A DNA stretch of 64,000 bases, from assembly GCA_019058445.1 (NCBI GenBank), contig JAHPZA010000004.1, positions 128,001 through 192,000 on the forward strand, written 5' to 3'. Source of the DNA: Promethearchaeota archaeon (lineage in GTDB: Archaea; Asgardarchaeota; Lokiarchaeia; Sigyniarchaeales; SOKP01). Made by a program: the position numbers and the translations under genes. The notes under the pieces were generated by a model that saw nothing but the letters and a program-made list of their open reading frames with translations, was not told the DNA's origin and made no database searches. Positions 29,723 through 44,581 of this stretch are shown in pieces. Position 1 is the stretch's first letter. Every line of letters starts with the position of its first letter.

Positions 29723-29900
29723 GATATTAAATTGAATCTAAAGTGAACTACTACTACCTAAAGGTAGTAGCTTCCTACGAGTCCGCACCTACTTTTGCAG
29801 TTGGCTTGACTGTATGTCGTAGAAAACCATTCCACTTTTGAAGGAATAGTTCCTCGTCCACAGAGGATTCATGTGATAGGAAATCATATTCGCCTAATTC
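29723..29900 (-). ncRNA. Predicted omegaRNA/reRNA overlapping the tnpB 3' end, with guide from flanking DNA
   Basis: Expected from TnpB biology. Hairpins are visible in the tnpB tail and right end; the guide would be TTTAGATTCAATTTAATATC (29742-29723). The 5' boundary is a guess. Confidence 0.6.
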
Positions 29901-31186
29901 TTTTGCTTTCAAGAATTTGACCATGATATTGACCGCTGAATTCAAGTCTCGGTCAATCTGATTCCCACAATCGCACCTAATAAATCTTTCGTAGATAGCT
30001 CTCTTTGAGAGCTTTCCACACTTACAACAGGCTTTCGTCGTCTTATCCTCACCAATTCTTATTACTCTTTTACCTAACTTTTCAGCTTTATAGGTCAAGA
30101 ATTCGGCAAATCGCGACATGAAACCCGCATTATAAACAGAGTGATTAAGTGTCTTTTTTGCTTTGGTCTTCTTAGCGTTTCCCGTTCCCTTCTTTTTCTT
30201 AGCCATTTATTTTACGGATAATTTTCCGATGATAATGGTATTTGCTTTGGTGTTCTCAACAACCTGCTTGGATAACCAATGTTGGTAATCTTTTAGCTGG
30301 GTTGTTTGTTTTCGCTTCATTTTTATTAGTTTGCTATTGTACCAATGCCATTTCTTACTCTTTTTCTTGCAGTGATCTCGTTTGGATTGCACTTGTTCAA
30401 GCTTTTTTTTCCAATAGAGATCTGCTCTTCTATGTCTGAATGAAATAAATTTACCATGAAGGTTTACTCCTGCTGTTTGAGAAATGCCTAAATCTAAAGC
30501 TTGATAAAGACCGTTATCTTTATATTTTGGCGGAAAAATTTCGTAGGTAATGGAAATGAACCAGCGCTTAAGTGAATCTAAAAATATTTCCACTTGCTTT
30601 ATAGTTTCTTTTGGAATAAGCTCTTTCGGTAATCCAAACGATAATACTTCTTTAGAGGGATGCTTATGAGAAAAATTGATAGTAGAATTTTCTATTATGA
30701 ATCCTGATTGATTGTAACTTAATGTTGTGAAGTATTTTTTGCTTTTGAAACGTGGCGATCTTGCTTTTTTATCTCCATTTTTCCAAAGAGCTGTAAATGA
30801 TTTATAGTTTGCATCAAGCTTCTTTAAGATCATTTGGAGTACTTTTGAATATACCCATTTATATTCCGGATATTTTTCTTTGATAACCGGTAATTGGTTT
30901 TGCTGATGGGTATAATTAATGAATTTTCGTTCTATCTTGGGTTTTTTCTTATTCTTTTTCCAATTTTCAATCCGTTCTGCTAACGCAAAATTATAAATAA
31001 GGCGACATTTTTCTGACAAATCCCACAATACTTTAACTTGTGAATCTGTTGGAAAAATTGGTAATTTTTGCGTTAGGTTCATAGTATGTTAGAATAATCT
31101 AATCGAAATCTATAAAAACGAGAGTTCGATGGTTTAATGAATTTTTAATTGACCACCCCCTAAAGAGGAGTGGCCTTCTTTTCTAT
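29743..31186 (-). mobile_element. Non-autonomous IS200/IS605-family (IS1341-like, tnpB-only) element
   Basis: Related subterminal hairpins at 29751-29770 (ctactacctaaaggtagtag) and about 31153-31173 (ccaccccctaaagaggagtgg). The minus-strand right end finishes ...GTTCAC at 29743. The left boundary is approximate (after TTAAC). No tnpA. Confidence 0.85.
29775..31082 (-). pseudogene. tnpB: RNA-guided endonuclease TnpB with one in-frame nonsense codon (30207-30209)
   Basis: Two abutting same-frame ORFs join to about 435 codons: CRLIYNFAL, PRFKSK, ALDLG (RuvC-I), CCKCG...CDCG zinc finger, DRDLNSAVNI (RuvC-III). Confidence 0.92.
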
Positions 31187-31279: not shown

Positions 31280-32397
31280 ATGAAGAAACCTATTGCTATT
31301 CTTGGTGGTGGAAATTCAATTTAACTATAAATTGAACCACATACGGCGGTCACCAAATGGCTTTAGATTTAACTTTAAGGGGATTTGACGTAAACTTTTG
31401 TGAGCATCCTGATTTTAAAGAGTCATTTAGAAACACACTTGAAACAAAAGTAATTGAAAATACAGGAATGATTGAAGATAAGGCTAAGATTCATAAGTTG
31501 ACATTAGACTTTAAAGAGGCATTGGAAGATGTTGATATTATTTACCTTGTTATTCCTGCTATTGCCCATGAAACGTTTTTTGATAATATTATCCCGCATC
31601 TTAGAGATGGGCAATTAGTCGTTATTTGGGCGGGTGATGCGGGAGCGCTCCGACTTGCCAAAAGATTAAGAGAAGAGGCACCGAATAAGAAGATAAGTAT
31701 CGCAGAAACTAATACTTTACCTTATGGAACTAGGCTTATTGGTCCTTCTAAAGTTGATCTGTTTGTTACAGCAAAAAAGATGTTATTTTCCACTTTTCCT
31801 GCGAATGAGACGGAAGAGAAACTAGAACTTGTTAAAGATACTTTTCCTGTTTTAGAACCTATTGATAATATTTTATCAGTATCATTTAGTAATCCTAATC
31901 CTACTGTCCATCCTCCCGGTACTCTATTAAACATCGGACGGATTCAGTGGTCGAAAGGTGATTTCTATCTATATCGGGAAGGAATAACAGAGGCTCCATC
32001 GCGAATTATCCGAAAAGTTTATGATGAAACTTTAGCGGTGGCTAAAGCACTTGGGTTCAGAATGCGAGAATTTGAAGATGAGCAGTTTAGAAATCCCTGT
32101 AGTGTTATGTGCGTAGATTTTTGGGCTCCATTTGATAAAGGAGGGATTGTGGCTAATATGAGAGGGCCCTCAAGTATATATAATAGGTATATTACCGAAG
32201 ATCTACCTTATGGGTTGGTACATAGATCCCAATTAGGAGATTTAGTAAACGTCCCTACACCTATTATTGATTCTATAATCAATTTAGGATCAGGTATCTG
32301 TGAAAGTAATTTCTGGGAAGGCCGAACTTTAGTAGACCTGGGTTTAGATGGGATGACTAAAGAGCGAATTATGGAATATCTCCAAAAAGGATCTTAA
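31280..32397 (+). CDS. NAD/NADP octopine/nopaline (opine) dehydrogenase family protein, spliced: join(31280..31313,31343..32397), 362 aa
   Basis: Spliced N-terminus MKKPIAILGGGNGGHQMALDL supplies the Rossmann motif missing from the 31357 ORF; ETNTLPY, NPNPTVHP, FYLYREG, RYITEDLPYGL. Confidence 0.88.
31314..31342 (+). other. 29-nt bulge-helix-bulge intron in a protein-coding gene
   Basis: GUGG(31308-11) AAA [UUCAAUUUA-ACUA-UAAAUUGAA] CCAC(31337-40) AUA C: 4-bp helix, two 3-nt bulges, perfect 9-bp intron stem. Cutting after nt 2 of each bulge restores the frame. Confidence 0.87.
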
Positions 32398-32412
32398 ATT
32401 ATAATTTGTGAG

Positions 32413-34044
32413 TTGATATATATGAGTTATGATATTATTATCAAGAATGGGAAAATCATCGATGGCGCGGGAAATCCATGTTATTCTGCAGATATTGGAA
32501 TTAAGGACGGAATTATTGAAAAAATTCGTCCGAAGTTAAAAGACGATGCAGATAAAGAAATTGATGCAAATGGCTTAATCGTATGTCCTGGTTTTATTGA
32601 TATGCATACGCATACAGACTTTTTGTTAGCAATTTATACCAAGATGGATTCTGCTATACGCCAAGGAATAACAACAAGCGTAGTTGGGATGTGTGGGGAA
32701 AGTATGGCTCCTATCCCTCAAGAAAAATTAGATGAATTTAAAAAACTTTTTAGTAGTCTTACTCCCATGGGAGGAGATTTAAAGATTACATGGAATACTT
32801 ATAGAGAATATCTTGAAGAACTGGATAAGCTCCGGATCCCGGGTAATATAGTTCCTGTCGTTGGTTTTGCTCCTATTCGAATAGCAGGAGGACCGGGGTA
32901 CGAAAATCGTCCTCCAATCCCTCAAGAGATTAAGAAAATGAGATCTTACGTTAAAGAAGCAATGGAAGCAGGGGCATTTGGATTAAGTACGGGTTTAATT
33001 TATGCTCCACAGGTCTTCGCAAAAACAGAAGAAATAATTGAACTCGCGAAGGTCGTTGGTGAATATAATGGTCTATACTTTTCACATATACGTGGTGAGG
33101 GTAAGAATTTAATCAGTTCAGTTAAAGAGGTTATTAAGATAGTTGAAAAATCTAGTTGTGCAGGAGGGCAAATTGCTCATCATAAGGTCGCGGGTAAAAA
33201 ATATTGGGGGGCGAGTAAAGAGACTATTCGGTTGATGGAAGAAGCAAATGCTCGAGGGATAAGTATCACATGTGATCAATATCCTTATAATCGGGGCCAA
33301 TCTGGTCTTATGACAAGTTTACCTCCATGGGCTCGTGAGGGAGGCAAGGAAAAAATACTTGAACGCTTAAATAATCCTGAAGATAGAGAACGTATCAAGA
33401 AAGATATACTTACACCTTCAGATGAATGGGAAAATTGGATTGAAACTAGCGGATTTGATCATATTTATATCACTTTTTTTAAAAATAAGGAATGGAAGGA
33501 GCTTGAGGGAAGGAGTATTTCAGAAATTACTAAAGTTAAGGGAAAGACTAACGATTTTGAAACTTATTTCGAGATTCTGATAAATGAAAATGCAGATGTA
33601 AATATTACTATAGAATCTATGGATGAAGAGGATATTCGTCGAATCATGACGAGCCGTTATCAGATGATTGGAACTGATGCAACTGCCAGTCCGCATCTAC
33701 CTGATTTTAAGATTTTCCACCCCCGTACGTTCGGTACTTATCCGAGGTTGTTAGGGAAGTATGTTCGAGAAGAAAAACTGTTAACCATGGAAGATGCAAT
33801 TCGGAAAATGACCTCTTTTCCAGCTCAAAAACTCGGTCTGAGGGATAGGGGATTAGTAAGAGAAGATAATTGGGCTGATATTGTAATATTCAATCCAGAT
33901 ACAATAAAAGATATAGCAACATTTGAAAACCCTCATCAATTCCCAGAAGGAATACTTCATGTTATAATCAATGGAGTTATCGTTGTAGAAAACGAAAAAC
34001 AACGGAAAAAATATCCAGGAAAAGTAATACGAAGGCCAAATTAA
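32413..34044 (+). CDS. N-acyl-D-amino-acid deacylase (D-aminoacylase) family amidohydrolase
   Basis: PGFIDMHTHTD, QGITT, GLSTGLIYAP, SHIRGE, HPRTFGTYPR. Confidence 0.92.
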   Translation: MIYMSYDIIIKNGKIIDGAGNPCYSADIGIKDGIIEKIRPKLKDDADKEIDANGLIVCPGFIDMHTHTDFLLAIYTKMDSAIRQGITTSVVGMCGESMAPIPQEKLDEFKKLFSSLTPMGGDLKITWNTYREYLEELDKLRIPGNIVPVVGFAPIRIAGGPGYENRPPIPQEIKKMRSYVKEAMEAGAFGLSTGLIYAPQVFAKTEEIIELAKVVGEYNGLYFSHIRGEGKNLISSVKEVIKIVEKSSCAGGQIAHHKVAGKKYWGASKETIRLMEEANARGISITCDQYPYNRGQSGLMTSLPPWAREGGKEKILERLNNPEDRERIKKDILTPSDEWENWIETSGFDHIYITFFKNKEWKELEGRSISEITKVKGKTNDFETYFEILINENADVNITIESMDEEDIRRIMTSRYQMIGTDATASPHLPDFKIFHPRTFGTYPRLLGKYVREEKLLTMEDAIRKMTSFPAQKLGLRDRGLVREDNWADIVIFNPDTIKDIATFENPHQFPEGILHVIINGVIVVENEKQRKKYPGKVIRRPN

Positions 34045-34085
34045 CATTAGTTTTGATAAAATAGTGAAATGAAATATATTTTTTT

Positions 34086-34526
34086 TCATTTCAATTCTAT
34101 TAATTCTTTTATTTGAAACTTCAATAATTTCTTGAGTTTAGGCCAATGCTTAATCACCTTCCCCGAAATAATAATATCACCACTTTCTATGTACCCCCAT
34201 GGGTGCGTTGGATAAATTATTCCAAATAGTATCTTCATACTTAGTTCCGATGTACAATAAAAGGTAAATGTAGGATCTTCAATGACTCCCTCTCCATATT
34301 CAAACAATTCATCTTCAACACTAAACCAAAATTCTTTATCCCAATCTGAAACAATATGTTGGACTTTCAACCTCATTTTCTTTAATTTTTTTGATAAATC
34401 TTTATGTTTTTCATAGACTTCTTTAAGCATCTCATAAGCATTTAGTAAATCCTCAGAATTAATGATTTCTATATTGTTTTGGACCTTTTCTTTAAGTTTT
34501 CTTAATAATTCTTTATTTAACATCAA
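34086..34526 (-). CDS. SCP2 sterol/lipid-binding-domain-like protein
   Basis: FEYGEGVIEDPTFTF...GDIIISG pattern. Confidence 0.65.
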   Translation of the reverse strand: MMLNKELLRKLKEKVQNNIEIINSEDLLNAYEMLKEVYEKHKDLSKKLKKMRLKVQHIVSDWDKEFWFSVEDELFEYGEGVIEDPTFTFYCTSELSMKILFGIIYPTHPWGYIESGDIIISGKVIKHWPKLKKLLKFQIKELIELK

Positions 34527-34632
34527 GCTTATCCTAGTTTTGATTTTTTTTTACGATACTAAGAGTAATTAAACCAATAGTGTTAATTGCATTCCACTTA
34601 AAAACATTTCATCTAAAAATTAAATCTTAAAA

Positions 34633-35598
34633 TTAAGAGGGATTTAATTTTCGCATTATCTCTTCAGCTTGTTTCACTACACGCTCAATAAGTTCTTTTA
34701 CTGTGGGAATATCTTCACATAGTCCAAGTCCTTGTCCAATGGTCATCATACCTGCATCTACATCTCCTTCTTCATACATCTTTCTGGTAAACATTCCCGA
34801 TGCTGCCTTAAAAAGTTCCGTATCAGGAGCACCTGACTCTTCTAATTCGAGGATATTTTGAGCAGCTGGATTGTGCCATACTCGAAGTGCATTATTAACA
34901 GATCTCAGAACGATTGTAGTATCATACGGGGTACAATTAAGAAGCGCTTTTTTTAAATTATCATGGATGGGACATTCTTTAGTGATAAGTAATCGAGATC
35001 CTATTAAAACTCCTTCTGCTCCTAATGCTAAAGCAGCAGCTAATCCTCTCCCATCAACAACACCACCTCCCGCAATAACGGGTATATCTATAGCATCTAC
35101 AGTTGCAGGTGTTAGTACAAAAGTGCCAATATCAAATTTTCCCACATGGCCACCATTCTCCCAGCCAACCACCTCCACAATATCAGCTCCAAGTGAAGCT
35201 GCTTTCTTTGCATAACGTACACCAGCACATTTGTGCATCCAGGTAATGTTGTGTTCTTTGAAAAGATGAAGGAATTTTTCGGGTGCTTCATGACCAGATG
35301 TTTCGATTATTTTTACCCCTTCATCAATCATTACTTTCAAATGTTTCATTTGGTTTGGAGGTTTCAGCATAGGAAATAAATTCATATTCACCGCAAATGG
35401 CTCTTTAACCAGGCTCTTAAGTTTTTGCAATGCTTCTCGCAATAGTTCAGCTTTCCTATATATAGCTGAAGCTAAAATACCAAGCCCGCCTGCGTTTGAG
35501 CATACAGCAGTGAATTCGGGACCTGTTAAAGCCATCATTGTGCCACATATGACAGGATTTTTAATTCCCAAAATTTCTGTGACTTTTGTTTTTATCAT
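34633..35598 (-). CDS. Nitronate monooxygenase / FabK-like flavoenzyme
   Basis: SNAGGLGIL, PFAVN, ENGGHVG, IPVIAGGG, LGAEGVLIGSR. Confidence 0.9.
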   Translation of the reverse strand: MIKTKVTEILGIKNPVICGTMMALTGPEFTAVCSNAGGLGILASAIYRKAELLREALQKLKSLVKEPFAVNMNLFPMLKPPNQMKHLKVMIDEGVKIIETSGHEAPEKFLHLFKEHNITWMHKCAGVRYAKKAASLGADIVEVVGWENGGHVGKFDIGTFVLTPATVDAIDIPVIAGGGVVDGRGLAAALALGAEGVLIGSRLLITKECPIHDNLKKALLNCTPYDTTIVLRSVNNALRVWHNPAAQNILELEESGAPDTELFKAASGMFTRKMYEEGDVDAGMMTIGQGLGLCEDIPTVKELIERVVKQAEEIMRKLNPS

Positions 35599-35821
35599 TT
35601 TTTTTATTCTCCAAAATATTGAATACGTATTGAGCTTAGTTTATTCATTATCTTTTTTTAAATTAATCTTTTCACAGAATCCTAATCTTTTTTGAAAGTG
35701 AAAATCTTGATATTAAAATAAATATTTGAAATACTTAGGTTAAAAATCAGTGTTTTGATGATTAGAAAATAAATAAAGGCTAATTTATGATTTTTTATTA
35801 GCTTTAAGGTGAACTAACTTA

Positions 35822-37252
35822 ATGATGAAAAAAGTATTAATCATTGGTTCTGGTATTGGTGGCTCCGGCTTCGGCGCTCTTTTGATCAATACAAGAAATT
35901 ACGAAATTGAATTATTCGAAAAAAATTCCTTAATTGGCGGGAGATTTTCAACATATGAAAAAGAGGGGTGGAAGTTAGATGTGGGTTGTCATCTAATTGC
36001 TAATTGCGAGAATGGGCCAATTGGATGGATCTTAAATGAGATTGGGAGAGCTAACGATGTAAAATGGTCTTATGCGCGGAACCCCACGCCTAAGTTTTTT
36101 TATATTGACAAATTTCTATTATTCCCTCGGGAATTGATTAGGTTAAATATTTCAAGTAAGGATTTAAAGAATTTACTGAGCTTAATGAAAGATTTAAATT
36201 CATTTTCAGAAACCGAGTTACAAAAATTAGAGGAGGAACAAGTTGATATGCGCACATTTCTCTCTAATTATACTAAAAATATGAAAGTTCTTTCTTTGTT
36301 TTCATTTTTTGCCGGATTATATTTTGTAATTCCTGATTTCTTGACTCCTGCGAGCGAATGGATTCGATGCCAACGTGACATTTTAAATTTTAAAACTTCG
36401 GGATATCCAATCGGAGGAACCATCAGTATTCCAAAAGCATTTTGTAAGTTTATAGAAGATAATGGAGGTAAAGTCCACACGAATACAGAAGTAAAGGAAA
36501 TTGTAATTGAGAATGGTAAAGCAATTGGAATTCGGACGGATCAAGGTATAATTAAAGGAGATTTAATAATATCCAATGTTGGAGTAAAAACTACAGTTCA
36601 AACTTTAATTGCAAAGGAATTAGTAGACACAGAATATTTCAAAAAAATTAATTCATATGAATACTCTCTCGCAACCATTCAAACGAAAATTGCGTTGGAT
36701 AGAAAAATAACTGATGAAAAAATGATAATGTTTGTAGGACAAGAAATTTCGCAGGATAATTGGGATAAAAAAGCATTTGAAGAAAAAAATTTTATGAAAC
36801 TTCTTCAGGATGTCGATTTCCATCCCATATTGTTTATTCCTATTGTTTCTAATTTAGATCCTTCTCTTGTTCCAGAAGGGAAACAATTAATTATTGCGGG
36901 TGGTGGATGCCCGACTCCAAGTCAAGGATTTAACAATGAGGATCATAAAAAAATGTGGGAAGGTGCTATTATTAGAAGCTTAGAAAAAATTTTTCCTAGT
37001 ATTCGCAATCATATTTTATGGACCGAAACAACAAGTCCAGAAGATATTAATAATTTCGTGAACAAGGATGGAACTGTTATTGGAATTGGGCAAACTACTG
37101 AACAAGTTGGCATCAATAGACCTTCTCATGAAATCCCAGGAATAAAAAACGCTTTTTGCTGTGGGGCAGATACAGGAAGGACGGGAATAGGAGGAGAATT
37201 AGCAGCTAATTCTGCTATAGAATTATATAAGAAAATTTTGAAAAATAATTAA
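35822..37252 (+). CDS. FAD-dependent oxidoreductase, phytoene desaturase-like
   Basis: IIGSGIGG, EKNSLIGGR, LDVGCH, YPIGG, C-terminal GADTG...AANSA. Confidence 0.85.
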   Translation: MMKKVLIIGSGIGGSGFGALLINTRNYEIELFEKNSLIGGRFSTYEKEGWKLDVGCHLIANCENGPIGWILNEIGRANDVKWSYARNPTPKFFYIDKFLLFPRELIRLNISSKDLKNLLSLMKDLNSFSETELQKLEEEQVDMRTFLSNYTKNMKVLSLFSFFAGLYFVIPDFLTPASEWIRCQRDILNFKTSGYPIGGTISIPKAFCKFIEDNGGKVHTNTEVKEIVIENGKAIGIRTDQGIIKGDLIISNVGVKTTVQTLIAKELVDTEYFKKINSYEYSLATIQTKIALDRKITDEKMIMFVGQEISQDNWDKKAFEEKNFMKLLQDVDFHPILFIPIVSNLDPSLVPEGKQLIIAGGGCPTPSQGFNNEDHKKMWEGAIIRSLEKIFPSIRNHILWTETTSPEDINNFVNKDGTVIGIGQTTEQVGINRPSHEIPGIKNAFCCGADTGRTGIGGELAANSAIELYKKILKNN

Positions 37253-37303
37253 GTATTCTTCAGAACTTGAATTTTGATATAAAATGAAATATTTCTAATT
37301 ACC

Positions 37304-38434
37304 ATGAATATATTAACTTCCAAAGAATACTATGATAAAGTTTTAGGTTCTTGGTTAGGAAGAGTTGCCGGAGATTTCGTAGGAGCTCCCGTGGAATTTC
37401 AACCGTATTCCCTTATAAAAGAGAAGTATGGAGATATAACATATTATCCAGAGCCAATTGACTTAAATCAAGTGAATGATGATGAAATGTATGAAATTTG
37501 TGCTCTAGTAGCACTAGAAAAACACGGAATTAACCTTACTGCAAATGAAATTGCCCTAGAATGGATTAATCTCCTTTATAAGCTTAATTTCACTGCAGAA
37601 GAAGTAGCCTTAAAAAACCTTCGAAATGGAATATGGCCGCCTGAGTCAGGAACACATAATAATTTTTATTTTGATGCGATTGGAGCACAAATGAGAGCTG
37701 ATATTTGGGGGCAAATCGCCCCGGGATGTCCAGAAATAACTAAATATTTTGCTGAAATGGATGGTTGTATCTCACATGCGGGAATTGGAGTGGAGGGAGA
37801 AGTATTTGTAGCTATTTTGCTCTCCCAAGCTTTTTTTGAAAACGATATCATAACTAACATACAAAACGCTCTTAATTTTGTTCCGCCTGCTGAACAAAGT
37901 CTATATACCCAAATGGTAAACACTTCACTTGAGATATTTGAAAAATATCCAGATGATTTTAGAAAAGCTCGAGATGCGCTTATAGAATATTGGAATGATG
38001 TTCGAAAAAATAAATTACCTCAATCTGGAATTAAAGGTTCTCTCTCTGAATCAATTCTCAATAGAAAAAGAAAGATGTTTTTAAAAGGTCGTCATTCAGG
38101 AGTGCATGTGTTACCTAATATTGGTATAATAGTTCTTTCGCTCATATATGGAGTACAGGATAAGGAAGACCCATTGGGAAGATCTATTTGTATAGCTGCG
38201 ATGATGGGTCTTGATACAGATTGCAATTGTGGAAACATTGGAGCTATCCTTGGAGCGCAGTTAGGTGCTGAAAAAATACCCTCAAAATGGAAGGAACCTT
38301 TAGAAGATACTTTCTCAACTTATGTAAAAGGGTACGAAAAATGGAAAATTAGTGAACTGGCTCGAAGGATTTGCGATATTGGAAAGAAAATTGTAAACGA
38401 AAAATGTCAAGATATAATTGAAATTTTAGAATAA
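37304..38434 (+). CDS. ADP-ribosylglycohydrolase family protein
   Basis: GSWLGRVAGDFVGAPVE, NDD, IGAQMRAD, GLDTDCN. Confidence 0.9.
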   Translation: MNILTSKEYYDKVLGSWLGRVAGDFVGAPVEFQPYSLIKEKYGDITYYPEPIDLNQVNDDEMYEICALVALEKHGINLTANEIALEWINLLYKLNFTAEEVALKNLRNGIWPPESGTHNNFYFDAIGAQMRADIWGQIAPGCPEITKYFAEMDGCISHAGIGVEGEVFVAILLSQAFFENDIITNIQNALNFVPPAEQSLYTQMVNTSLEIFEKYPDDFRKARDALIEYWNDVRKNKLPQSGIKGSLSESILNRKRKMFLKGRHSGVHVLPNIGIIVLSLIYGVQDKEDPLGRSICIAAMMGLDTDCNCGNIGAILGAQLGAEKIPSKWKEPLEDTFSTYVKGYEKWKISELARRICDIGKKIVNEKCQDIIEILE

Positions 38435-38454
38435 AATCAAGGAGTCTTTAATTT

Positions 38455-39933
38455 ATGACAATTTTAGCTATTGATGTTGGAACTCAAAGTATTCGAGCAG
38501 CAATAGTTAGTAAAGACGGAAAAATTTTAGAAATTTCACAGAAACAACAAGAAGTAGATAGTCCATGTCCGGGGTGGGTCCAACAACGGCCACAGCTTTG
38601 GTGGGATCTAATTAAACAGGCGATTAGTGAACTTGTAAAAAAAACTAAAATTGATATTAATTCGATTCAAGGTATTAGCACGTGTGGCCAAATGCATGGA
38701 CCTGTAGGCATTGATGATCATGGCGAAATAACAACAGAATGGACTCAGATATGGATGGATAAGCGCTGTGAAAATATTTGTGATAAGATAAAAAAAGAAC
38801 ATGATGAGTCTGATCTTGCCAATATTACCGGAAATCCTATTACTACAGGATGGCCAGGAGTCAAAGTTCGATGGATAAAAGATAATCAACCAGAAGTTTA
38901 CGAAAAAACCAAGGTATTTTTGGTTCCTAAGGATTTTATTAATTTTAAACTAACAGGTGTGGAGGCTACTGATCCAAGCGAAGCATCAGGGACATACATT
39001 TATGATTTTAAATCCGATAGTTATAATAACCAAATGGCTAAAATTCTTGACATTGATCTCAGTAAATTCGCACCTATATCTGAATCTTATGAAACTATTG
39101 GATATATTAAGGAGGAGGTTTCTAATGAACTTAGAATACCTGCCAATATCCCTGTAGTGGCTGGAGGTGGAGATTTTATTGTTTCATTATTAGGATTAGG
39201 TTTAGTAGGGGAAGGAACAGCAGTTGATATGACAGGAACAAGTACGCTTTTTGTAGTTCATAAAGATGAACCTATAATTCACCCCTCAGTCCAAAATTTA
39301 CGACATGTGATAAAAGGTTGGTTATCCTTTACAATGTTAGATACTGGTGGATTGAGTATGAAATGGTGTAAAGATTTTCTCAGTTCTATTGGTAAGGAAG
39401 AGATAACCTATGAACAAATGATTAATATGGCAAATAAGATACCCATAGGAAGTGAAGGACTGATATTTTACCCTTATATGCTTGGTGAACGCCGGCAAGA
39501 AAATACTATGGCGAGAGGGTGTTTTTATGGTCTAACTTTAAATCATAATGCGGCGCATTTAGCTCGATCAGTAATGGAGGGAGTTGCCTTGGCAATTGGT
39601 AAGGATGTTCAGAATTTTAGAGATTTGGGAGTAAACCTTAAACAAGTATTCTGCATAGGTGGTGCTACGCGCAATAAATTATTATATCAAATTAAAGCGG
39701 ATGTAATGCAACTGCCGCAGATTTTAACTGAAGAGCCAGAAGCAAGTTTAAGAGGTTGCGGTCTATTAGCAGCTTTCGGATTAGGACTAATTAAAAATTT
39801 AGAAGAAACTGCTAAGCTTAAAGATTCAAATAATATTGTCATTAATCCCAATAAATCCTCATCAGAAAAATATAAAAAACTTCTAGAGGAGTTTAAGCGG
39901 ATGTATGAACATCTAATTGGGTATTGGAGTTAA
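38455..39933 (+). CDS. FGGY carbohydrate kinase (xylulokinase-like)
   Basis: IDVGTQS, GQMHG, PKDFI, DPSEASGT, GGGD, PYMLGER, VMEGVA. Confidence 0.9.
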   Translation: MTILAIDVGTQSIRAAIVSKDGKILEISQKQQEVDSPCPGWVQQRPQLWWDLIKQAISELVKKTKIDINSIQGISTCGQMHGPVGIDDHGEITTEWTQIWMDKRCENICDKIKKEHDESDLANITGNPITTGWPGVKVRWIKDNQPEVYEKTKVFLVPKDFINFKLTGVEATDPSEASGTYIYDFKSDSYNNQMAKILDIDLSKFAPISESYETIGYIKEEVSNELRIPANIPVVAGGGDFIVSLLGLGLVGEGTAVDMTGTSTLFVVHKDEPIIHPSVQNLRHVIKGWLSFTMLDTGGLSMKWCKDFLSSIGKEEITYEQMINMANKIPIGSEGLIFYPYMLGERRQENTMARGCFYGLTLNHNAAHLARSVMEGVALAIGKDVQNFRDLGVNLKQVFCIGGATRNKLLYQIKADVMQLPQILTEEPEASLRGCGLLAAFGLGLIKNLEETAKLKDSNNIVINPNKSSSEKYKKLLEEFKRMYEHLIGYWS

Positions 39934-40634
39934 GTGATAATATACGATTTTTCAAGTTTCCATGCACCATAGCAGATAATTGATCCGTAGACTATACCTG
40001 AATATGAGAACACCTTTTGCATAGTTACAATCAATTTCAGTTCATTTTTTGTATTGATAGGACCAACCATTATCATTAGACCTATAAAAATAATTGCAAC
40101 AAGCATATAGCACATTAAAACATAAGCATAATGGTTAGGGTACTCTTCATTATGAGTCACTGCTAATATGTAGAAGAAAATAGTGATGACTGTTGTTACA
40201 AAGGATGTCTCAGCAAATCTATCATGAGCTTCCGGATATATATTCCATGGAGTTAGCCCTGCACCAATAATGGAAATTCCAATAATAACTCCGAATAAAG
40301 AAGTCAAGGTGATTAATCTTTTCTGATTTTTGGTTTTAAAAAAATGTATTATTGTGATGTAAAATAAAATTGAAGAGATTCCTGATATGATCATAGAAAT
40401 TGTAAATAATATATATGAAACGGGATTAGGGTAGCCAGAGTAGGATCTTGTTAATCCTAAATCACTAATAAAATTAGAAAAGAAAGAATATCCTTGGACG
40501 TTTGGATCGAGACGCGTTCCCCCAGGATAAAAAAACATAGCAATATGTATAAGGATAAAATATTGAATGATACTTGCAATGTTAAAGATGAAAATCCGTT
40601 CCCGCCATTTTTCGAGATCCATATAACTCATCAC
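39930..40634 (-). CDS. DUF998-like membrane protein
   Basis: FYPGG...GYSFFSNFISDLG, TPWN...AH; paralog of the next gene. Confidence 0.7.
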   Translation of the reverse strand: MMSYMDLEKWRERIFIFNIASIIQYFILIHIAMFFYPGGTRLDPNVQGYSFFSNFISDLGLTRSYSGYPNPVSYILFTISMIISGISSILFYITIIHFFKTKNQKRLITLTSLFGVIIGISIIGAGLTPWNIYPEAHDRFAETSFVTTVITIFFYILAVTHNEEYPNHYAYVLMCYMLVAIIFIGLMIMVGPINTKNELKLIVTMQKVFSYSGIVYGSIICYGAWKLEKSYIIT

Positions 40635-40668
40635 CTAGAGTTTGAGATCTTTAAAGCATTAGTTTATT

Positions 40669-41358
40669 TTAGGTTTCGGATTTCTCCAACATCCATGCAC
40701 CATATCCTTGAATAAAAAGACATATAAGAGAACTAAAAGTTGTAATTTTTTGAAGGGTAACTATAATTACTAAATCTCCTAGTGCAGTATCATACGTTGC
40801 TAATAGAGAAATAATAATACTTATCATCCAAATTCCAGTAAGAACTAAAAAGGTGAAAGCATATCGATTTGGATATTTCTTATTATGCAACATAGCAATC
40901 GAATAAAAAACTAAGCTTAAAACTACAACTATTGGTTGAATGCCGGCGAAGATACCATGAGCAACAGTATAGATATCCCATGGAGTAAATGCAATCCCAA
41001 TCAAGGTAATAGCGGAAAAAATTCCAAAAACAGTTCCCAATTTGCTTAATCGCTTTTCATCCTGATTTTCTTCAAAAAAATGAGTAACTGCTATCAAAAA
41101 AGGAATTAGTAAAATGCCAAACAAGGAATATACTATTGTAAAAAATATACTCGATATAGTATTTGGTTTTCCCGAATACCCTCTAGTTCTGCCTAAATCA
41201 CTCAGAAAATTTGTCCAAAAAGAATAACCTTGAGCATCAGGATTATTTAATGATCCTCCAGCATAAAAAAACATTGAAACACTGATAAAAATAGTATATT
41301 GGATTGGAATTATCATTACAAAAATGTAGCTCCAGTTTCTCCAATCTTTAGGTTTCGT
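40669..41358 (-). CDS. DUF998-like membrane protein (homologous start falls on ACG 41358; first ATG 41316)
   Basis: GYSFWTNFLSDLG; the in-frame extension KPKDWRNWSYIFV aligns with paralog MDLEKWRERIFIF. Confidence 0.7.
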   Translation of the reverse strand, partial: TKPKDWRNWSYIFVMIIPIQYTIFISVSMFFYAGGSLNNPDAQGYSFWTNFLSDLGRTRGYSGKPNTISSIFFTIVYSLFGILLIPFLIAVTHFFEENQDEKRLSKLGTVFGIFSAITLIGIAFTPWDIYTVAHGIFAGIQPIVVVLSLVFYSIAMLHNKKYPNRYAFTFLVLTGIWMISIIISLLATYDTALGDLVIIVTLQKITTFSSLICLFIQGYGAWMLEKSET

Positions 41359-41437
41359 TTTTGTTTTTTAGATAAAAAATGTTGCATGATATTATATTTA
41401 AAGTTATTATTAAATAATCAAATAGAAATGGTTAGGA

Positions 41438-42589
41438 TTAATAGTTCCCAAATTCTTGAATTGCTTTATAGCAAGCAACTATATTCTCTGCGGGTTGATC
41501 TAATAGGAAATTAGTAGGGCCTGGAATAAATCCTCCTTTTTTACCTAAAGTTTGTATACTTTTTTTAATTGAATTTCTCACAAATTCAGGAGATTCATAT
41601 TTTAACATTTCGGAATCGTCAATAGTTCCAACCAGAGTGATTTCTGGATATTTTTCTCGGTACATCTTCAAATCGTTATTTTTCGGTTTTAAAGATTCCA
41701 CACCATCTATTCCAATTTCTACAAAATCAGGGAAAACTTCTCCAATTGCCCCACAACTATGTATTAAAAATTTTGCTCCTTCATCATGGGCCATTTTTAC
41801 ATACCTCGCGAGAATAGGCTTGATAAACCTTCGCCATAATTTAGGGGGAAGTTGTAATCCATCATTATATCCATAGTCATCGCCGCACATTACTACCTCC
41901 GGCTTAGTCTTCAATATCATTTTCATCATTGGCTCTTCAATTGTTTCCCATTGAAATTCTATATGTTGTTCAAGAAAGCTGGGCTCTTTTCTTGCGAATC
42001 TCGCAAAATTAGCATGGCCTATACCAAATACGCAATTCTCGAATGGACCAGGCTGGCCTTGAGACACCACTATATCGTATTTTTTTAACATATTTTTTCG
42101 AATTTTCGCGAAATTTCGAATACTCTCCTTTGTTGGTCTTAAATCATTCGCTCTACTCCAATAATCCTCAATATTTTCCTTTTTTAGAAGAGCAGGACCC
42201 GCATACCACCAATGTGGAATTCCCTCATCACGAACCACAATTTTAAAATATCCCCCACTATGAATTATATAATCATTAATACTTTCAAGTTTAATGGGTA
42301 ATCCCATATTTGGATTTTGCCAACATAAGTCAATTTTAGCATCAAGGCCACCAGATAATATCTCGGGAGGGCAAAATTTTGCTATTATAGCGTGCATGTA
42401 TGGTATTCCATATGATACGTTATCCTTATCTAAATGTTGAATATCCTCGTCTGTTAATGCATATGGAGAATTCATAAATTTTTCTACAAAATCAAAATCT
42501 CCACCTAAACAAAAGCTTGGAACCCTGTCAGGAATTTTTCCTTCCAAAACGGTTAAAATTCTTTCTAAAGCGGTCATTTTTTCAACCAT
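41438..42589 (-). CDS. Uroporphyrinogen decarboxylase / MtaA-CmuA family protein
   Basis: MTALER...PDRVP, GDDYG, HSCG, GTID, GGFI. Confidence 0.85.
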   Translation of the reverse strand: MVEKMTALERILTVLEGKIPDRVPSFCLGGDFDFVEKFMNSPYALTDEDIQHLDKDNVSYGIPYMHAIIAKFCPPEILSGGLDAKIDLCWQNPNMGLPIKLESINDYIIHSGGYFKIVVRDEGIPHWWYAGPALLKKENIEDYWSRANDLRPTKESIRNFAKIRKNMLKKYDIVVSQGQPGPFENCVFGIGHANFARFARKEPSFLEQHIEFQWETIEEPMMKMILKTKPEVVMCGDDYGYNDGLQLPPKLWRRFIKPILARYVKMAHDEGAKFLIHSCGAIGEVFPDFVEIGIDGVESLKPKNNDLKMYREKYPEITLVGTIDDSEMLKYESPEFVRNSIKKSIQTLGKKGGFIPGPTNFLLDQPAENIVACYKAIQEFGNY

Positions 42590-42591
42590 TC

Positions 42592-42951
42592 TTAACCAAC
42601 ACCTGTAAGTTTCGATAAAATTGTTATTGCATCAAGATTTTTAACATGAACTTTTTTACTGGCAATTCCATCCCTTATTCCAGCTGCTCCTTTATACAAT
42701 ATTTCAGTTGGGAGAGCTAAATACGTATCACAGTCAATAGTATCTAAATCTTTTAAATCTTTTATATTTTCTAGTATTTCAATATCAAATTCTCCATTTT
42801 CAATCTTTATTAAGAACGCTGGAGGTGAATCTGTTAAAAGTATTGCCATTTTAATTGAATCTGGAAATTTTTTCTCGAGTTTTCTAAAAATCTTAAGGAC
42901 CCATAATCCGGAATAAATTACAGCCGGAAGCCCCTCATATAATGGACTCAT
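42592..42951 (-). CDS. Small hypothetical protein, possibly SCP2-like
   Basis: 2 bp upstream of the UroD-like gene; AFLIKIENGEFDI...CDTYL...KVHVKN. Confidence 0.5.
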   Translation of the reverse strand: MSPLYEGLPAVIYSGLWVLKIFRKLEKKFPDSIKMAILLTDSPPAFLIKIENGEFDIEILENIKDLKDLDTIDCDTYLALPTEILYKGAAGIRDGIASKKVHVKNLDAITILSKLTGVG

Positions 42952-43010
42952 TTAAATATCCTACTTATTTTCTAATCTTATCCTTTAAAATAGGAAAAAA
43001 ATTGATCGAA

Positions 43011-43679
43011 TTAAAAATATTTCTTTTCAATAATTGCCTTTACAGCGTCTTTAAAAATTAATTTCCCCATTTTTCTGTAGCCTTCAACGGAAAAATGAAG
43101 TCCATCGACATATGCACATTCCTTTAATAAATTTCCCTTATCGTCCATCATTCCGTTATATAAATCTGCGAAGGGTATATCATTTTCTTCAAAAAAGGAC
43201 TTTAGTAATTTATTAAGCTCAATTTTTTTTTTATTATACGTCCCATATGATTGCTCTGCTCTTATAGGTGGGACTGTTCCACCTATAGTCAATATGCCAA
43301 AATCCCGGGAAATTGTATGAAGCTCTTTAATATTTCCAAATATTTTCTCGTTCGAGATGCCCCAACCTAAATCATTTGTCCCTCCAATTATAATTGAATA
43401 AGTGGGCTTTGGTTTAATTTTTAACAGATCGAAGTCAATCCTTCTCAGAAAATTGCTCGTAAGCTCTCCAGGAACACCCTTATTGATAAATAATAGATCA
43501 TTTATAATCTCATCACTTAAAGTTCCTAGATTTTTTTCTAAATGCTCCATACTTATATTTTTAAGCCAATATTCATACTGGGATTTTGAATTACCATAAC
43601 CTTTAGATATCCCATCTGGAGCGGGATCATATCCTGGATATCCCGCCGTTAAAGAGTTACCTAAACACAAAAATATCAT
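43011..43679 (-). CDS. SGNH/GDSL hydrolase
   Basis: LGNSLTAG, NKGVPG, GGTND, DGLH. Confidence 0.9.
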   Translation of the reverse strand: MIFLCLGNSLTAGYPGYDPAPDGISKGYGNSKSQYEYWLKNISMEHLEKNLGTLSDEIINDLLFINKGVPGELTSNFLRRIDFDLLKIKPKPTYSIIIGGTNDLGWGISNEKIFGNIKELHTISRDFGILTIGGTVPPIRAEQSYGTYNKKKIELNKLLKSFFEENDIPFADLYNGMMDDKGNLLKECAYVDGLHFSVEGYRKMGKLIFKDAVKAIIEKKYF

Positions 43680-44356
43680 ATAATTTCACTTGAGTTTAAC
43701 TTTAACAATTTCATTATATCATTGACACCAATATGAGATAAATCCCTTGCTATCAAATTAGCATTTTGTAATTCCCCTTTAGGGTGGGTCGTTGTGAGGG
43801 CAATTGAACTCATATTGGCTCTTATTGCTGCCTCAATACCAACAGGAGCATCTTCAATAACTACACAGTTTTCGGGTTTAATCCTTAAGCGGGTAGCAGC
43901 GATTAAAAAAACATCTGGTGCAGGCTTTCCATTTTTTACATCTTCAGCAGTAATAACTATATCAAAAAATTGCTTAATATTCAAACTAGTTAATAATAGC
44001 TCCACATTTTCAAAAGGTCCACTAGAACCGACTGCTAATTTAAAACCATGATTTTTTAGTGATCTAATAAGTTGTATAGCACCCGGTAAAGGTTCTAATT
44101 TATCTTTGACCATCTCTCTATAATAATGCTCCTTAAGATCTGCCCATTTTTTAACAAGTGCTTGATCAACTTCAGGACCGACTAACTTCCTTGTGATCGG
44201 AATCGATTGTTGTCCAAATGTCTCTTCGAAGAAATCTCTCGTAAACTTGACTTTCGCATCGTATCTTGCCATCTTAGCCCAGCTTTGAAAATGAATTGGA
44301 CCTGTCGCACTTAGCACTCCATCCACGTCGAAGATTACCAAATAGTTCTTAAACAT
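43676..44356 (-). CDS. HAD-family phosphatase (beta-PGM-like)
   Basis: FDVDGVL, GKPAPD, IEDAPVG. Confidence 0.9.
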   Translation of the reverse strand: MFKNYLVIFDVDGVLSATGPIHFQSWAKMARYDAKVKFTRDFFEETFGQQSIPITRKLVGPEVDQALVKKWADLKEHYYREMVKDKLEPLPGAIQLIRSLKNHGFKLAVGSSGPFENVELLLTSLNIKQFFDIVITAEDVKNGKPAPDVFLIAATRLRIKPENCVVIEDAPVGIEAAIRANMSSIALTTTHPKGELQNANLIARDLSHIGVNDIMKLLKLNSSEII

Positions 44357-44444
44357 AAGTTTAACAATTAGAAGATATTACGTAATTATAATAGAGAAAT
44401 AAAATATTTTAAGTATTATTCATAACCATTATAAAGATCATTAC

Positions 44445-44581
44445 AGCCCAGTGGTCTAGTTTGGATATCATTATATTACGAAATATATATAACCATAAAG
44501 GGCGCTGGCTTGCGGAGCCAGTTATCGGGGGTTCAAGCCACTAAAATTCTCTTTTAGCGGGAACATATCCCCCCTGGGCTA
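44445..44581 (+). tRNA. tRNA-Arg(GCG) with two introns (44467-44498 in the D-loop; 44537-44566 in the T-loop)
   Basis: Acceptor AGCCCAG/CTGGGCT; anticodon arm CTGGC-TTGCGGA-GCCAG (GCG 44512-44514); T-stem GGGGG/CCCCC. Removing both introns gives a 75-nt cloverleaf with T-loop TTCAAAT. Confidence 0.93.

What the first reader, a model, noticed from the sequence alone, without database searches (positions are those of the whole stretch)
31314..44566. The mRNA intron and the two tRNA introns look like one family of micro-introns
Seen: lengths are 29, 30 and 32 nt. Each is a short AU-rich hairpin followed by the 4-nt complement of the upstream exon. The mRNA and T-loop introns both end ...ACAU|A. 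The mRNA insertion site (UGGAA|A) resembles the D-loop site (UGGAU|A). Inference: introns may be spreading from tRNAs into tRNA-like hairpin sites in mRNAs. The spliced exon junction itself sits in a UUGGUG/CACCAA hairpin. This would bear on intron gain in the archaeal relatives of eukaryotes.
Basis: inference. Interest (0 to 1): 0.7.

Follow-up and report, generated by a model that had tools for sequence, protein, structure and literature searches.

The report
Mini-introns in tRNA and mRNA
In this Asgard archaeon a dehydrogenase gene and a nearby arginine tRNA gene are interrupted by roughly 30-base hairpin introns of the type removed by the tRNA-splicing enzyme; they share a size and shape common to dozens of introns in the genome but no common sequence, and the one in the protein gene was not found in any sampled relative.

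Summary
A 29-nt insert (31314-31342) splits the GxGxxG motif of an octopine-dehydrogenase-like gene. Inserts of 32 nt (44467-44498) and 30 nt (44537-44566) split a tRNA-Arg(GCG) gene. Removing them restores an N-terminus identical to intron-less orthologues and a 75-nt tRNA. The mRNA and T-loop inserts fold as canonical bulge-helix-bulge (BHB) motifs. The D-loop insert is a relaxed form.

"One family" is true only as a class. I collected 31 BHB introns in this genome, 22 in tRNAs and 9 in mRNAs. Their modal length is 30 nt and their bulges are A-rich.

The three focal introns are no more alike than architecture-preserving shuffles. None has a second copy in this genome. The mRNA intron has no copy in 60 relatives.

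Their ages differ. The T-loop intron is shared across genera. The mRNA intron occurs only in this genome and is missing precisely from all four orthologues among 135 family genomes, so a lineage-specific gain is most parsimonious.

Spread from tRNAs into mRNAs is not supported, because no donor was found.

No RNA data exist for this organism, so splicing is inferred. The scan has noted BHB introns in mRNAs before, in this genome and in at least 28 genomes overall.

The parts
31280..31313 (+). Exon 1 of the octopine/nopaline-dehydrogenase-like gene: ATG plus 11 codons, MKKPIAILGGG, and the first base of Asn. A GGAG lies about 10 nt upstream.
   Evidence: Unspliced, this frame stops at TAA 31322-31324. 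Orthologues start the same way.
31314..31342 (+). 29-nt BHB intron in the mRNA: 1 nt + 9-bp stem + ACUA loop + CCAC + AU.
   Evidence: fold; exact 29-nt gap in 5 orthologous loci; no other copy.
31308..31311 (+). Exon half (GUGG) of the 4-bp central BHB helix. Its partner is CCAC at 31337-31340.
   Evidence: present in the MFE fold.
31343..32397 (+). Exon 2. It completes GxGxxG (..NGGHQMALDL..) and carries the Octopine_DH helical domain. The frame is intact to the stop codon.
   Evidence: (PF02317, E 7.7e-37), (91% identity to the G003 orthologue).
31302..31356 (+). Exon-exon outer pairing UUGGUG / CACCAA around the BHB. It is encoded by the conserved Gly and His-Gln codons and is also possible in intron-less orthologues.
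44445..44581 (+). Pre-tRNA-Arg(GCG) gene, 137 nt. It is 75 nt after removal of two introns.
   Evidence: ARAGORN 121.8 on the spliced form; undetected unspliced; orthologues.
44467..44498 (+). 32-nt D-loop intron (after 20a). It is a relaxed BHB: UUGG/CCAU with a U.U mismatch, and the bulges are AU|A and AA|A.
   Evidence: patchy in relatives; intron-less D-loops in G002, G034 and G055 fix the mature sequence.
44537..44566 (+). 30-nt T-loop intron between positions 58 and 59. It is a canonical BHB: GUUC/GAAC, with bulges AA|G and AU|A.
   Evidence: the same position is occupied in 10 relatives from at least 5 genera.

Best explanation
All three inserts are archaeal bulge-helix-bulge introns.

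Proposed mechanism (inferred, not shown): the transcript folds so that 4 exon bases pair with 4 bases near the intron's 3' end, leaving a 3-nt bulge on each strand. The splicing endonuclease EndA cuts after the second base of each bulge. RtcB joins the exons and probably circularises the intron.

For the tRNA, this yields a normal tRNA-Arg(GCG). For the mRNA, it joins an 11-codon first exon to the rest of an octopine-dehydrogenase-like reading frame and rebuilds its NAD(P)-binding GxGxxG motif. Without splicing, only a 14-residue peptide or an N-terminally truncated protein could be made.

The three belong to one architectural class that dominates this genome: a minimal hairpin of about 30 nt, with A-rich bulges, found in both tRNA and protein genes. 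They are not copies of one another.

The T-loop intron is ancient in the family. The D-loop intron is patchy. The mRNA intron is most parsimoniously a gain on this genome's own branch. Its source is unknown.
For: Structure: BHB geometry at the exact register for the mRNA and T-loop introns.

Product:
- The spliced ORF N-terminus is identical to those of uninterrupted orthologues in G003, G002, G008, G027 and the two MAG loci L001 and L002. Each lacks exactly these 29 nt.
- The orthologues have open frames of 364-366 aa, against 353 here.
- The spliced tRNA scores 121.8.

Machinery: an EndA alpha subunit with N-terminal and catalytic domains, and RtcB, are encoded.

Class:
- Only 4-5 tRNA genes are detectable without in-silico splicing.
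- 22 tRNA introns were recovered by BHB removal, with a modal length of 30 nt.
- Eight further mRNA introns lie in EF-2, gyrB, chlD, acs, Sir2, GH38, a CODH-like gene and a flavin-reductase-like gene, 7 of them 30 nt.
- The EF-2 and gyrB inserts interrupt genes presumed essential, so they must be removed. The gyrB intron keeps its hairpin through compensatory changes in 4 congeners.

Not copies.

Ages:
- The T-loop intron is found in 10 relatives from at least 5 genera.
- The G000 and G003 copies are 27/30 identical.
- The mRNA intron is absent from all 4 orthologue-bearing genomes of 135.

Not an assembly artefact: an independent contig from another sample carries the intron identically.
Against: - There is no transcript evidence, so excision is inferred.
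- For the mRNA intron the canonical outer helix is only 2 bp (G-C, U.G). The better exon pairing leaves a 10-nt loop at the 3' site, so it is an HBh'-like substrate that needs a broad-specificity EndA.
- The D-loop intron fits BHB geometry poorly.
- A beta subunit of EndA was not looked for.
- Gain versus loss rests on parsimony over five genomes without a species tree. Precise intron loss seems frequent in this clade: the EF-2 intron is shared by G000 and a different genus but missing from 7 congeners.
- My intron catalogue is incomplete and biased to well-paired BHBs. The compact-hairpin filter used to find the mRNA introns limits them to short lengths, so only the tRNA scan (22-60 nt allowed) is unbiased in length.
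Confidence: 0.8

Rival explanations
1. One reading: the three introns are one sequence family by descent, with tRNA introns transposing into tRNA-like hairpin sites of mRNAs. This would resemble the intron transposition proposed for Thermoproteales.
For: - Shared length class and architecture.
- Shared ...AU|A ends.
- UGG at the mRNA site, the D-loop site and the Sir2 mRNA site.
- The Sir2 and D-loop introns both end CCAUAA|A.
- A slight excess of intron pairs at or above 70% identity in the catalogue: 9 against 3.3 expected, p about 0.01.
- The length of 30 nt is strikingly uniform, which a single generating process could explain.
Against: - Focal pairwise identities equal architecture-preserving shuffles.
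- The catalogue-wide mean is 0.525 against a null of 0.523, and the maximum of 0.767 is reached by 16% of null sets.
- None of the pairs at or above 70% involves the mRNA intron.
- No second copy exists in the genome or in 60 relatives. Orthologous introns separated by the G000/G003 split are still 90% identical, so a recent donor should be visible.
- Most mRNA sites have almost no outer exon helix (0-2 bp in 5 of 6), so they are not tRNA-like hairpins.
- A published census found almost no shared intron families in Asgard tRNAs (bioRxiv 10.64898/2026.10.13.758758).
Confidence: 0.06
2. The 29-nt insert is a recent disabling insertion: the dehydrogenase gene is a fresh pseudogene, and the BHB-like fold is fortuitous or irrelevant.
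For: It occurs only in this genome. No RNA data exist. The outer helix is weak. The gene is sporadic, with orthologues in 4 of 135 family genomes, so it is dispensable.
Against: - A random 29-mer giving a perfect 4-bp helix with the exon, two 3-nt bulges and a perfect 9-bp stem in the right register has odds of the order of 1e-5 (my estimate from the base-pairing probability of 0.39 in this genome).
- The rest of the 346-codon frame is intact.
- Inserts of identical build sit in EF-2 and gyrB (presumed essential genes) and in tRNAs, where they must be removed.
Confidence: 0.08
3. The mRNA intron is real but old. It was present in the ancestor of the genus and lost precisely, several times, in G003, G002, G008 and G027.
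For: Precise loss appears common. The EF-2 intron of G000 is 70% identical to that of G021, a different genus, yet it is absent from 7 congeners.
Against: It needs at least 2-4 independent exact losses against one gain. No relative of 135 has any insert at this site.
Confidence: 0.12

Closest known systems
cbf5 pre-mRNA intron of Crenarchaeota (Watanabe 2002; Yoshinari 2006; Yokobori 2009, as cited in PMC5829648 and PMC7714728)
   Same: A BHB intron inside a protein-coding sequence, removed by the tRNA splicing endonuclease. It is associated with hetero-oligomeric, broad-specificity EndA. It has been gained and lost among relatives.
   Different: Different phylum (Asgard) and a different gene (octopine-DH-like). 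Here it is one of at least nine mRNA introns in a single genome, all about 30 nt, against a single gene in Crenarchaeota. In 2020 cbf5 was still described as the only coding-region case (PMC7714728).
Intron-rich tRNA genes of Asgard archaea (Valentin-Alvarado 2024, PMC11291895; Goswami 2026 preprint 10.64898/2026.10.13.758758)
   Same: Most tRNA genes are interrupted, often several times and at non-canonical positions such as the D-arm. Gains are repeated and sit at BHB-competent sites. No evidence was found of copying between genes.
   Different: Those studies cover tRNA genes of Atabeyarchaeia and Freyarchaeia only (median insert 22-23 nt) and do not mention mRNA. Here the mode is 30 nt and the same class occupies protein genes.
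Transposed tRNA intron families of Thermoproteales (Fujishima 2010, as summarised in the 2026 preprint)
   Same: Many non-canonical BHB introns at varied tRNA positions.
   Different: In Thermoproteales related intron sequences recur in different tRNAs. Here sequence families were tested and not found for the focal introns.
BHB intron in the 5' UTR of Haloferax volcanii HVO_1309 (PMC7714728)
   Same: EndA substrate in an mRNA, confirmed there by circRNA-seq and in vitro cleavage.
   Different: It is 46 nt and lies in the untranslated leader, so it does not interrupt the reading frame.
HAC1/XBP1 unconventional mRNA splicing in eukaryotes (IRE1 cut, RtcB or Trl1 ligation; from my own knowledge)
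   Same: Protein-only endonuclease cuts at paired stem-loop sites in an mRNA. tRNA-ligase-type joining changes the reading frame.
   Different: A different, unrelated nuclease and a regulated stress response. This is an analogy, not membership.

Membership tests
Archaeal BHB (EndA-spliced) intron | A 4-bp central helix flanked by two 3-nt bulges on opposite strands, with cuts after the second bulge base. | tested here: met
   mRNA intron: GUGG/CCAC, bulges AA|A and AU|A. T-loop intron: GUUC/GAAC, bulges AA|G and AU|A.
Archaeal BHB (EndA-spliced) intron | The same geometry for the D-loop insert. | tested here: inconclusive
   UUGG/CCAU has a U.U mismatch, the inner stem is out of register, and the fold is no better than shuffles. 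G003 has AUGG/CCAU, a perfect helix. Relaxed forms are known substrates of broad-specificity EndA (PMC5829648).
Archaeal BHB (EndA-spliced) intron | Flanking helices h and h' (the hBHBh' form). | tested here: met
   The inner helix is 9 bp in the mRNA and T-loop introns. The outer helix of the mRNA intron is only 2 bp contiguous, or 5 bp with a 10-nt loop, so it is an HBh'-type rather than a strict hBHBh'.
Archaeal BHB (EndA-spliced) intron | Removal at the predicted sites yields a functional product. | tested here: met
   The ORF N-terminus equals those of intron-less orthologues. tRNA-Arg(GCG) is 75 nt with a score of 121.8.
Archaeal BHB (EndA-spliced) intron | The host encodes the splicing endonuclease and the RtcB ligase. 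| tested here: met
   EndA alpha (PF02778 + PF01974) at C9:770595-770843. RtcB (574 bits) at C1:114713-116020. The beta subunit was not searched for.
Archaeal BHB (EndA-spliced) intron | Excision observed in RNA. | not testable with these tools
   No run listed as RNA holds this DNA.
Transposed intron sequence family (Thermoproteales type) | Members share recognisable sequence, about 70-80% identity or more, across different host genes. | tested here: not met
   Identities of 0.47-0.63 equal the shuffled null. No other copy exists in the genome or in 60 relatives.
tRNA-Arg(GCG) | Cloverleaf with a 7-bp acceptor stem, GCG anticodon, UUCAAAU T-loop and discriminator A. | tested here: met
   ARAGORN on the doubly spliced sequence. 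An intron-less orthologue exists in G055.
NAD/NADP octopine/nopaline dehydrogenase family | N-terminal GxGxxG Rossmann motif plus the Octopine_DH helical domain. | tested here: met
   PF02317, E 7.7e-37, on exon 2. GGGNGG is rebuilt only after splicing.

The most novel reading that the evidence does not exclude
The uniform 30-nt BHB micro-introns are one still-active invasive class that colonises tRNA genes and protein-coding genes alike in this Asgard family. New copies would arrive by an RNA-level route, such as reverse splicing followed by reverse transcription and recombination, or de novo hairpin insertion tailored to 4 exon bases. On this reading the dehydrogenase intron is a fresh insertion caught before it spread, and EndA plus RtcB act as a general mRNA-splicing system in close archaeal relatives of eukaryotes.
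Probability: 0.2. Interest if true: 0.9.

Novelty: new variant of a known kind. Interest (0 to 1): 0.68.

Why it matters
In the papers I could search, endonuclease-spliced introns inside archaeal coding sequences are documented only for cbf5.

Here the same genome carries at least nine such introns, beside tRNA genes that are almost all interrupted. One of the nine is present in a single genome, while its closest orthologues are precisely intron-less. That gives a dated, site-resolved example of intron turnover in a protein gene of an archaeal relative of eukaryotes.

It also yields a testable regularity: a sharply fixed length of about 30 nt, shared by tRNA and mRNA introns.

It removes one attractive explanation, copy-and-paste from tRNA introns, for how such introns arrive.

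Tried and rejected
- ARAGORN and Rfam on the raw window found no tRNA, even at E up to 10. The tRNA appears only after in-silico splicing.
- A purely structural genome-wide BHB scan showed no excess over a mirror-image control: 59,001 against 58,905 hits. In a 31% GC genome, fold alone is not evidence.
- Requiring that removal joins two open frames still gave 13,195 against 13,166.
  - Compact-hairpin filters gave a modest excess: 322 against 259; 46 against 27 with both flanks at least 40 codons; 10 against 2 with an outer helix added.
  - A hexamer coding-potential filter did not help.
  - mRNA introns were therefore accepted only when the joined protein showed a recognisable conserved motif.
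  - The true number of mRNA introns therefore remains unknown.
- A strict two-intron search missed the focal tRNA. One relaxed run overflowed the disk. The relaxed search near GC-rich islands worked but still misses relaxed D-arm introns, so the tRNA catalogue is partial.
- No RNA holder was listed for this DNA.
- Laying DNA contigs of four runs showed no intron-less allele of the dehydrogenase gene. Contigs cannot show absence.
- The search for related loci found only two related loci.
- Site preference for UGG-A: 3 of 31 introns share NUGG+A in register. After allowing for the choice among 256 tetramers I judge this not significant (reasoned, not simulated).
- I considered translational bypass and assembly error. 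I dismissed them because the same inserts occur in tRNAs and because an independent contig carries the intron.


Full report
**What is in the sequence**

The window is 30-36% GC. It lies on contig C4 (128001-192000) of a 4.6-Mb, 10-contig genome. Close relatives carry the record titles "Promethearchaeota archaeon" and "Candidatus Hermodarchaeota archaeon". I therefore take it to be an Asgard metagenome-assembled genome from sediment.

An ORF at 31357-32397 carries the Octopine_DH domain (PF02317, E 7.7e-37) but lacks the N-terminal Rossmann motif. Upstream, an ATG at 31280 follows a GGAG and opens a frame that reads MKKPIAILGGGNSI and then stops. Deleting 31314-31342 (29 nt) joins the two frames. 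The product is MKKPIAILGGGNGGHQMALDLTLRGFDV....

Between 44357 and 44583 lies a tRNA-like sequence that ARAGORN and Rfam do not detect. Deleting 44467-44498 (32 nt) and 44537-44566 (30 nt) gives a 75-nt tRNA-Arg(GCG) with a normal cloverleaf and an ARAGORN score of 121.8.

**Structure**

- The mRNA insert is a textbook BHB core.
  - Exon GUGG pairs with intron CCAC.
  - The bulges are AA|A and AU|A.
  - The inner helix is a perfect 9 bp, with the loop ACUA.
  - This core is part of the minimum-energy fold of 31296-31362 (-15.8 kcal/mol, z -2.3).
  - The contiguous outer helix is only G-C and U.G.
  - The alternative UGGUG/CACCA pairing leaves a 10-nt loop at the 3' site.
  - The intron is therefore best called an HBh'-type substrate.
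- The T-loop insert lies between positions 58 and 59. It uses the conserved GUUC of the T arm against GAAC, and its inner helix is 9 bp with one A.C mismatch.
- The D-loop insert is relaxed. UUGG/CCAU has a U.U mismatch and the inner stem is out of register. The G003 orthologue has AUGG/CCAU.

**Comparative evidence for the mRNA intron**

Six loci from five sources (G003, G002 and G008 in the same genus, G027 in another genus, and the MAG loci L001 and L002) align across the site with one gap of exactly 29 nt. All encode M(E/K/N)KPI(A/S)ILG(G/A)GNGGHQMA... uninterrupted.

A protein search of 135 genomes of the family found true orthologues (75-91% identity) only in G003, G002, G008 and G027. 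Their open frames are 364-366 aa, against 353 aa here.

A contig from a second sample of the same study carries the intron identically, so it is not an assembly artefact.

One gain on this genome's branch is the most parsimonious history. However, I have no species tree, and precise loss seems common in the clade (see the EF-2 result below).

**Comparative evidence for the tRNA introns**

The T-loop position of tRNA-Arg is occupied in 10 of 14 related loci from at least five genera. The inserts are almost always 29-31 nt. Their interiors have turned over, but the ...GAA(C) tail that pairs with GUUC is retained.

The G000 and G003 copies are 27/30 identical. D-arm inserts are patchy: G003, G008, G015, G020, G014, G035 and G031 have one. 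Some relatives have anticodon-loop or variable-region introns instead. The G055 copy has none.

The tRNA introns are therefore much older than the mRNA intron.

**Is the mRNA intron a singleton?**

No. Earlier notes of this scan pointed to other cases in this genome. I checked independently.

I joined open frames across BHB candidates and kept only junctions that rebuild recognisable conserved motifs. This gave introns in:
- EF-2 (switch I)
- a CODH/hybrid-cluster-like gene
- a Sir2 gene (QNVDGLH...ELHG|N)
- GH38 (HWDRE|W)
- a flavin-reductase-like gene

Motif searches then found:
- chlD (MNPE|E|GELRPQ)
- gyrB (GLEGV|RKRPAMYIG)
- acs (GEPI|NPEAW)

Their lengths are 30, 32, 30, 30, 30, 30, 30 and 30 nt.

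On the tRNA side, ARAGORN finds only 4-5 intron-less tRNA genes in the whole genome. Removing BHB candidates in silico recovered about 18 more genes, with 20 introns at many positions. One of these genes is a tRNA-Phe with three introns.

Across the first 28 introns, the intron's penultimate base is A in 25. The last two bases are AA or AU in 21. The first exon-side bulge base is A in 21.

EndA alpha and RtcB are encoded.

**Are the three one family by descent?**

- Global pairwise identities are 0.53 (mRNA vs T-loop), 0.63 (mRNA vs D-loop) and 0.47 (T-loop vs D-loop).
- These sit at the 55th, 90th and 28th percentiles of the 378 pairs in the catalogue.
- They equal shuffles that keep the stem pairing, the loop composition, the 4-nt tail and the ends. 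The shuffle means are 0.53, 0.64 and 0.46.
- With 31 introns, the observed mean is 0.525 against a null of 0.523. The maximum of 0.767 is reached by 16% of null sets.
- Pairs at or above 0.70 are somewhat more frequent than expected (9 against 3.3, p about 0.01). None involves the mRNA intron.
- blastn-short of each intron against the genome gives best non-self hits of 30-32 bits. That is the level of shuffled queries.
- The 29-mer with up to 3 mismatches occurs nowhere in 60 relatives.
- Orthologous introns separated by the G000/G003 split are still about 90% identical. A donor used after that split should therefore be recognisable, and none is.

The shared ...ACAU|A end decomposes into two parts: the genome-wide AU/AA bulge, and an AC forced by exon bases GU. 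The site resemblance reduces to UGG. Most mRNA sites have 0-2 bp of outer exon helix, so "tRNA-like hairpin sites" is not a general property.

**Dynamics seen in passing**

The EF-2 intron is present here, in G021 (another genus, 21/30 identical) and in G006 (a different sequence). It is absent from 26 other relatives, including 7 congeners.

The gyrB intron is present in five congeners, is always exactly 30 nt, and has compensatory stem changes. It is absent from 14 other genomes.

mRNA introns of this class are therefore gained and/or lost often, and they evolve under structural and length constraint. This is what one expects of spliced introns and not of dead insertions.

**Literature**

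- BHB introns in coding sequence are reported for cbf5 of Crenarchaeota. A 2020 paper still calls this the only example besides its own 5'-UTR case (PMC7714728; PMC5829648).
- Asgard archaea are reported to have (alpha-beta)2 EndA with the broad-specificity L1 loop (PMC5829648).
- Intron-rich Asgard tRNA genes are published (PMC11291895).
- An October 2026 preprint finds repeated gains at BHB-competent sites and no copying between tRNA genes. It does not mention mRNA.
- I found no paper describing BHB introns in Asgard protein genes.
- Unchecked notes of this scan report the same phenomenon across at least 28 genomes. In some of them, environmental RNA lacks exactly the insert. I did not test those claims.

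**Verdict**

The inserts are BHB introns with high probability, though splicing is inferred and not shown. "One family" holds as a size-and-shape class shared by tRNA and mRNA introns of this genome, not as a family of related sequences. The proposed tRNA-to-mRNA spread has no support, because no donor exists. The recent, lineage-specific presence of the mRNA intron is the most useful result.

Noticed in passing
window 29775-31082 (- strand): A TnpB / IS605 OrfB-like gene lies directly upstream of the intron-bearing gene. It is split by an in-frame TAA followed by ATG at about 30204-30209. The 291-aa part has HTH_OrfB_IS605 and OrfB_IS605, and the 143-aa part has the Cas12f1-like TNB domain. 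It is a pseudogene or a two-ORF form. No BHB is evident at the break.
   Followed up: partly
whole genome G000 (e.g. C6:515918-516100 +, tRNA-Phe(GAA) with introns of 29, 28 and 30 nt): Only 4-5 tRNA genes are detectable without removing introns. About 18 more appear after in-silico BHB removal. Many expected tRNAs are still unfound, probably because of relaxed D-arm introns.
   Followed up: partly
G000 C10:684116-684145 (EF-2), loci L042-L071: A 30-nt intron lies in EF-2 switch I. It is present in G000, G021 (another genus, 21/30 identical) and G006 (a different sequence, offset site). It is absent from 26 other relatives, including 7 congeners. This implies frequent precise loss or repeated gain at one site.
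   Followed up: partly
G000 C9:608302-608331 (gyrB), loci L072-L094: A 30-nt intron follows codon 22 of gyrB in five congeners (G000, G003, G007, G002, G006). It is always exactly 30 nt, with compensatory changes in the hairpin. It is absent from 14 other genomes.
   Followed up: partly
intron catalogue, G000: Intron length is sharply peaked at 30 nt in both tRNA and mRNA introns, and it stays at 30 nt in diverged orthologues. No explanation was tested. It might reflect a ruler in the splicing or ligation enzymes, or the process that creates the introns.
   Followed up: no
intron catalogue, G000: There is a slight excess of intron pairs at or above 70% identity (9 against 3.3 expected). Examples are tPhe-GAA third intron with tSer-GCT, tThr-CGT with tAsn-GTT, and the tArg D-loop intron with the Sir2 mRNA intron (both end CCAUAA|A). 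This is a weak hint of some relatedness among other introns.
   Followed up: no
window 44536 (loose ends in runs X2 and X3): Contigs from other samples match the tRNA-Arg up to GGTTCAA. They then continue either straight into ATCCCCC... (no T-loop intron, different acceptor stem) or into a different intron sequence. Co-occurring relatives therefore differ at this intron position.
   Followed up: no
These are unverified and may be artefacts of mis-placed introns.
   Followed up: no
several mRNA introns of G000: Several mRNA introns sit very near the 5' end of the coding sequence: the dehydrogenase after codon 11, GH38 within about the first 20 codons, and gyrB after codon 22. This could be a real 5' bias or a sampling effect.
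   Followed up: no
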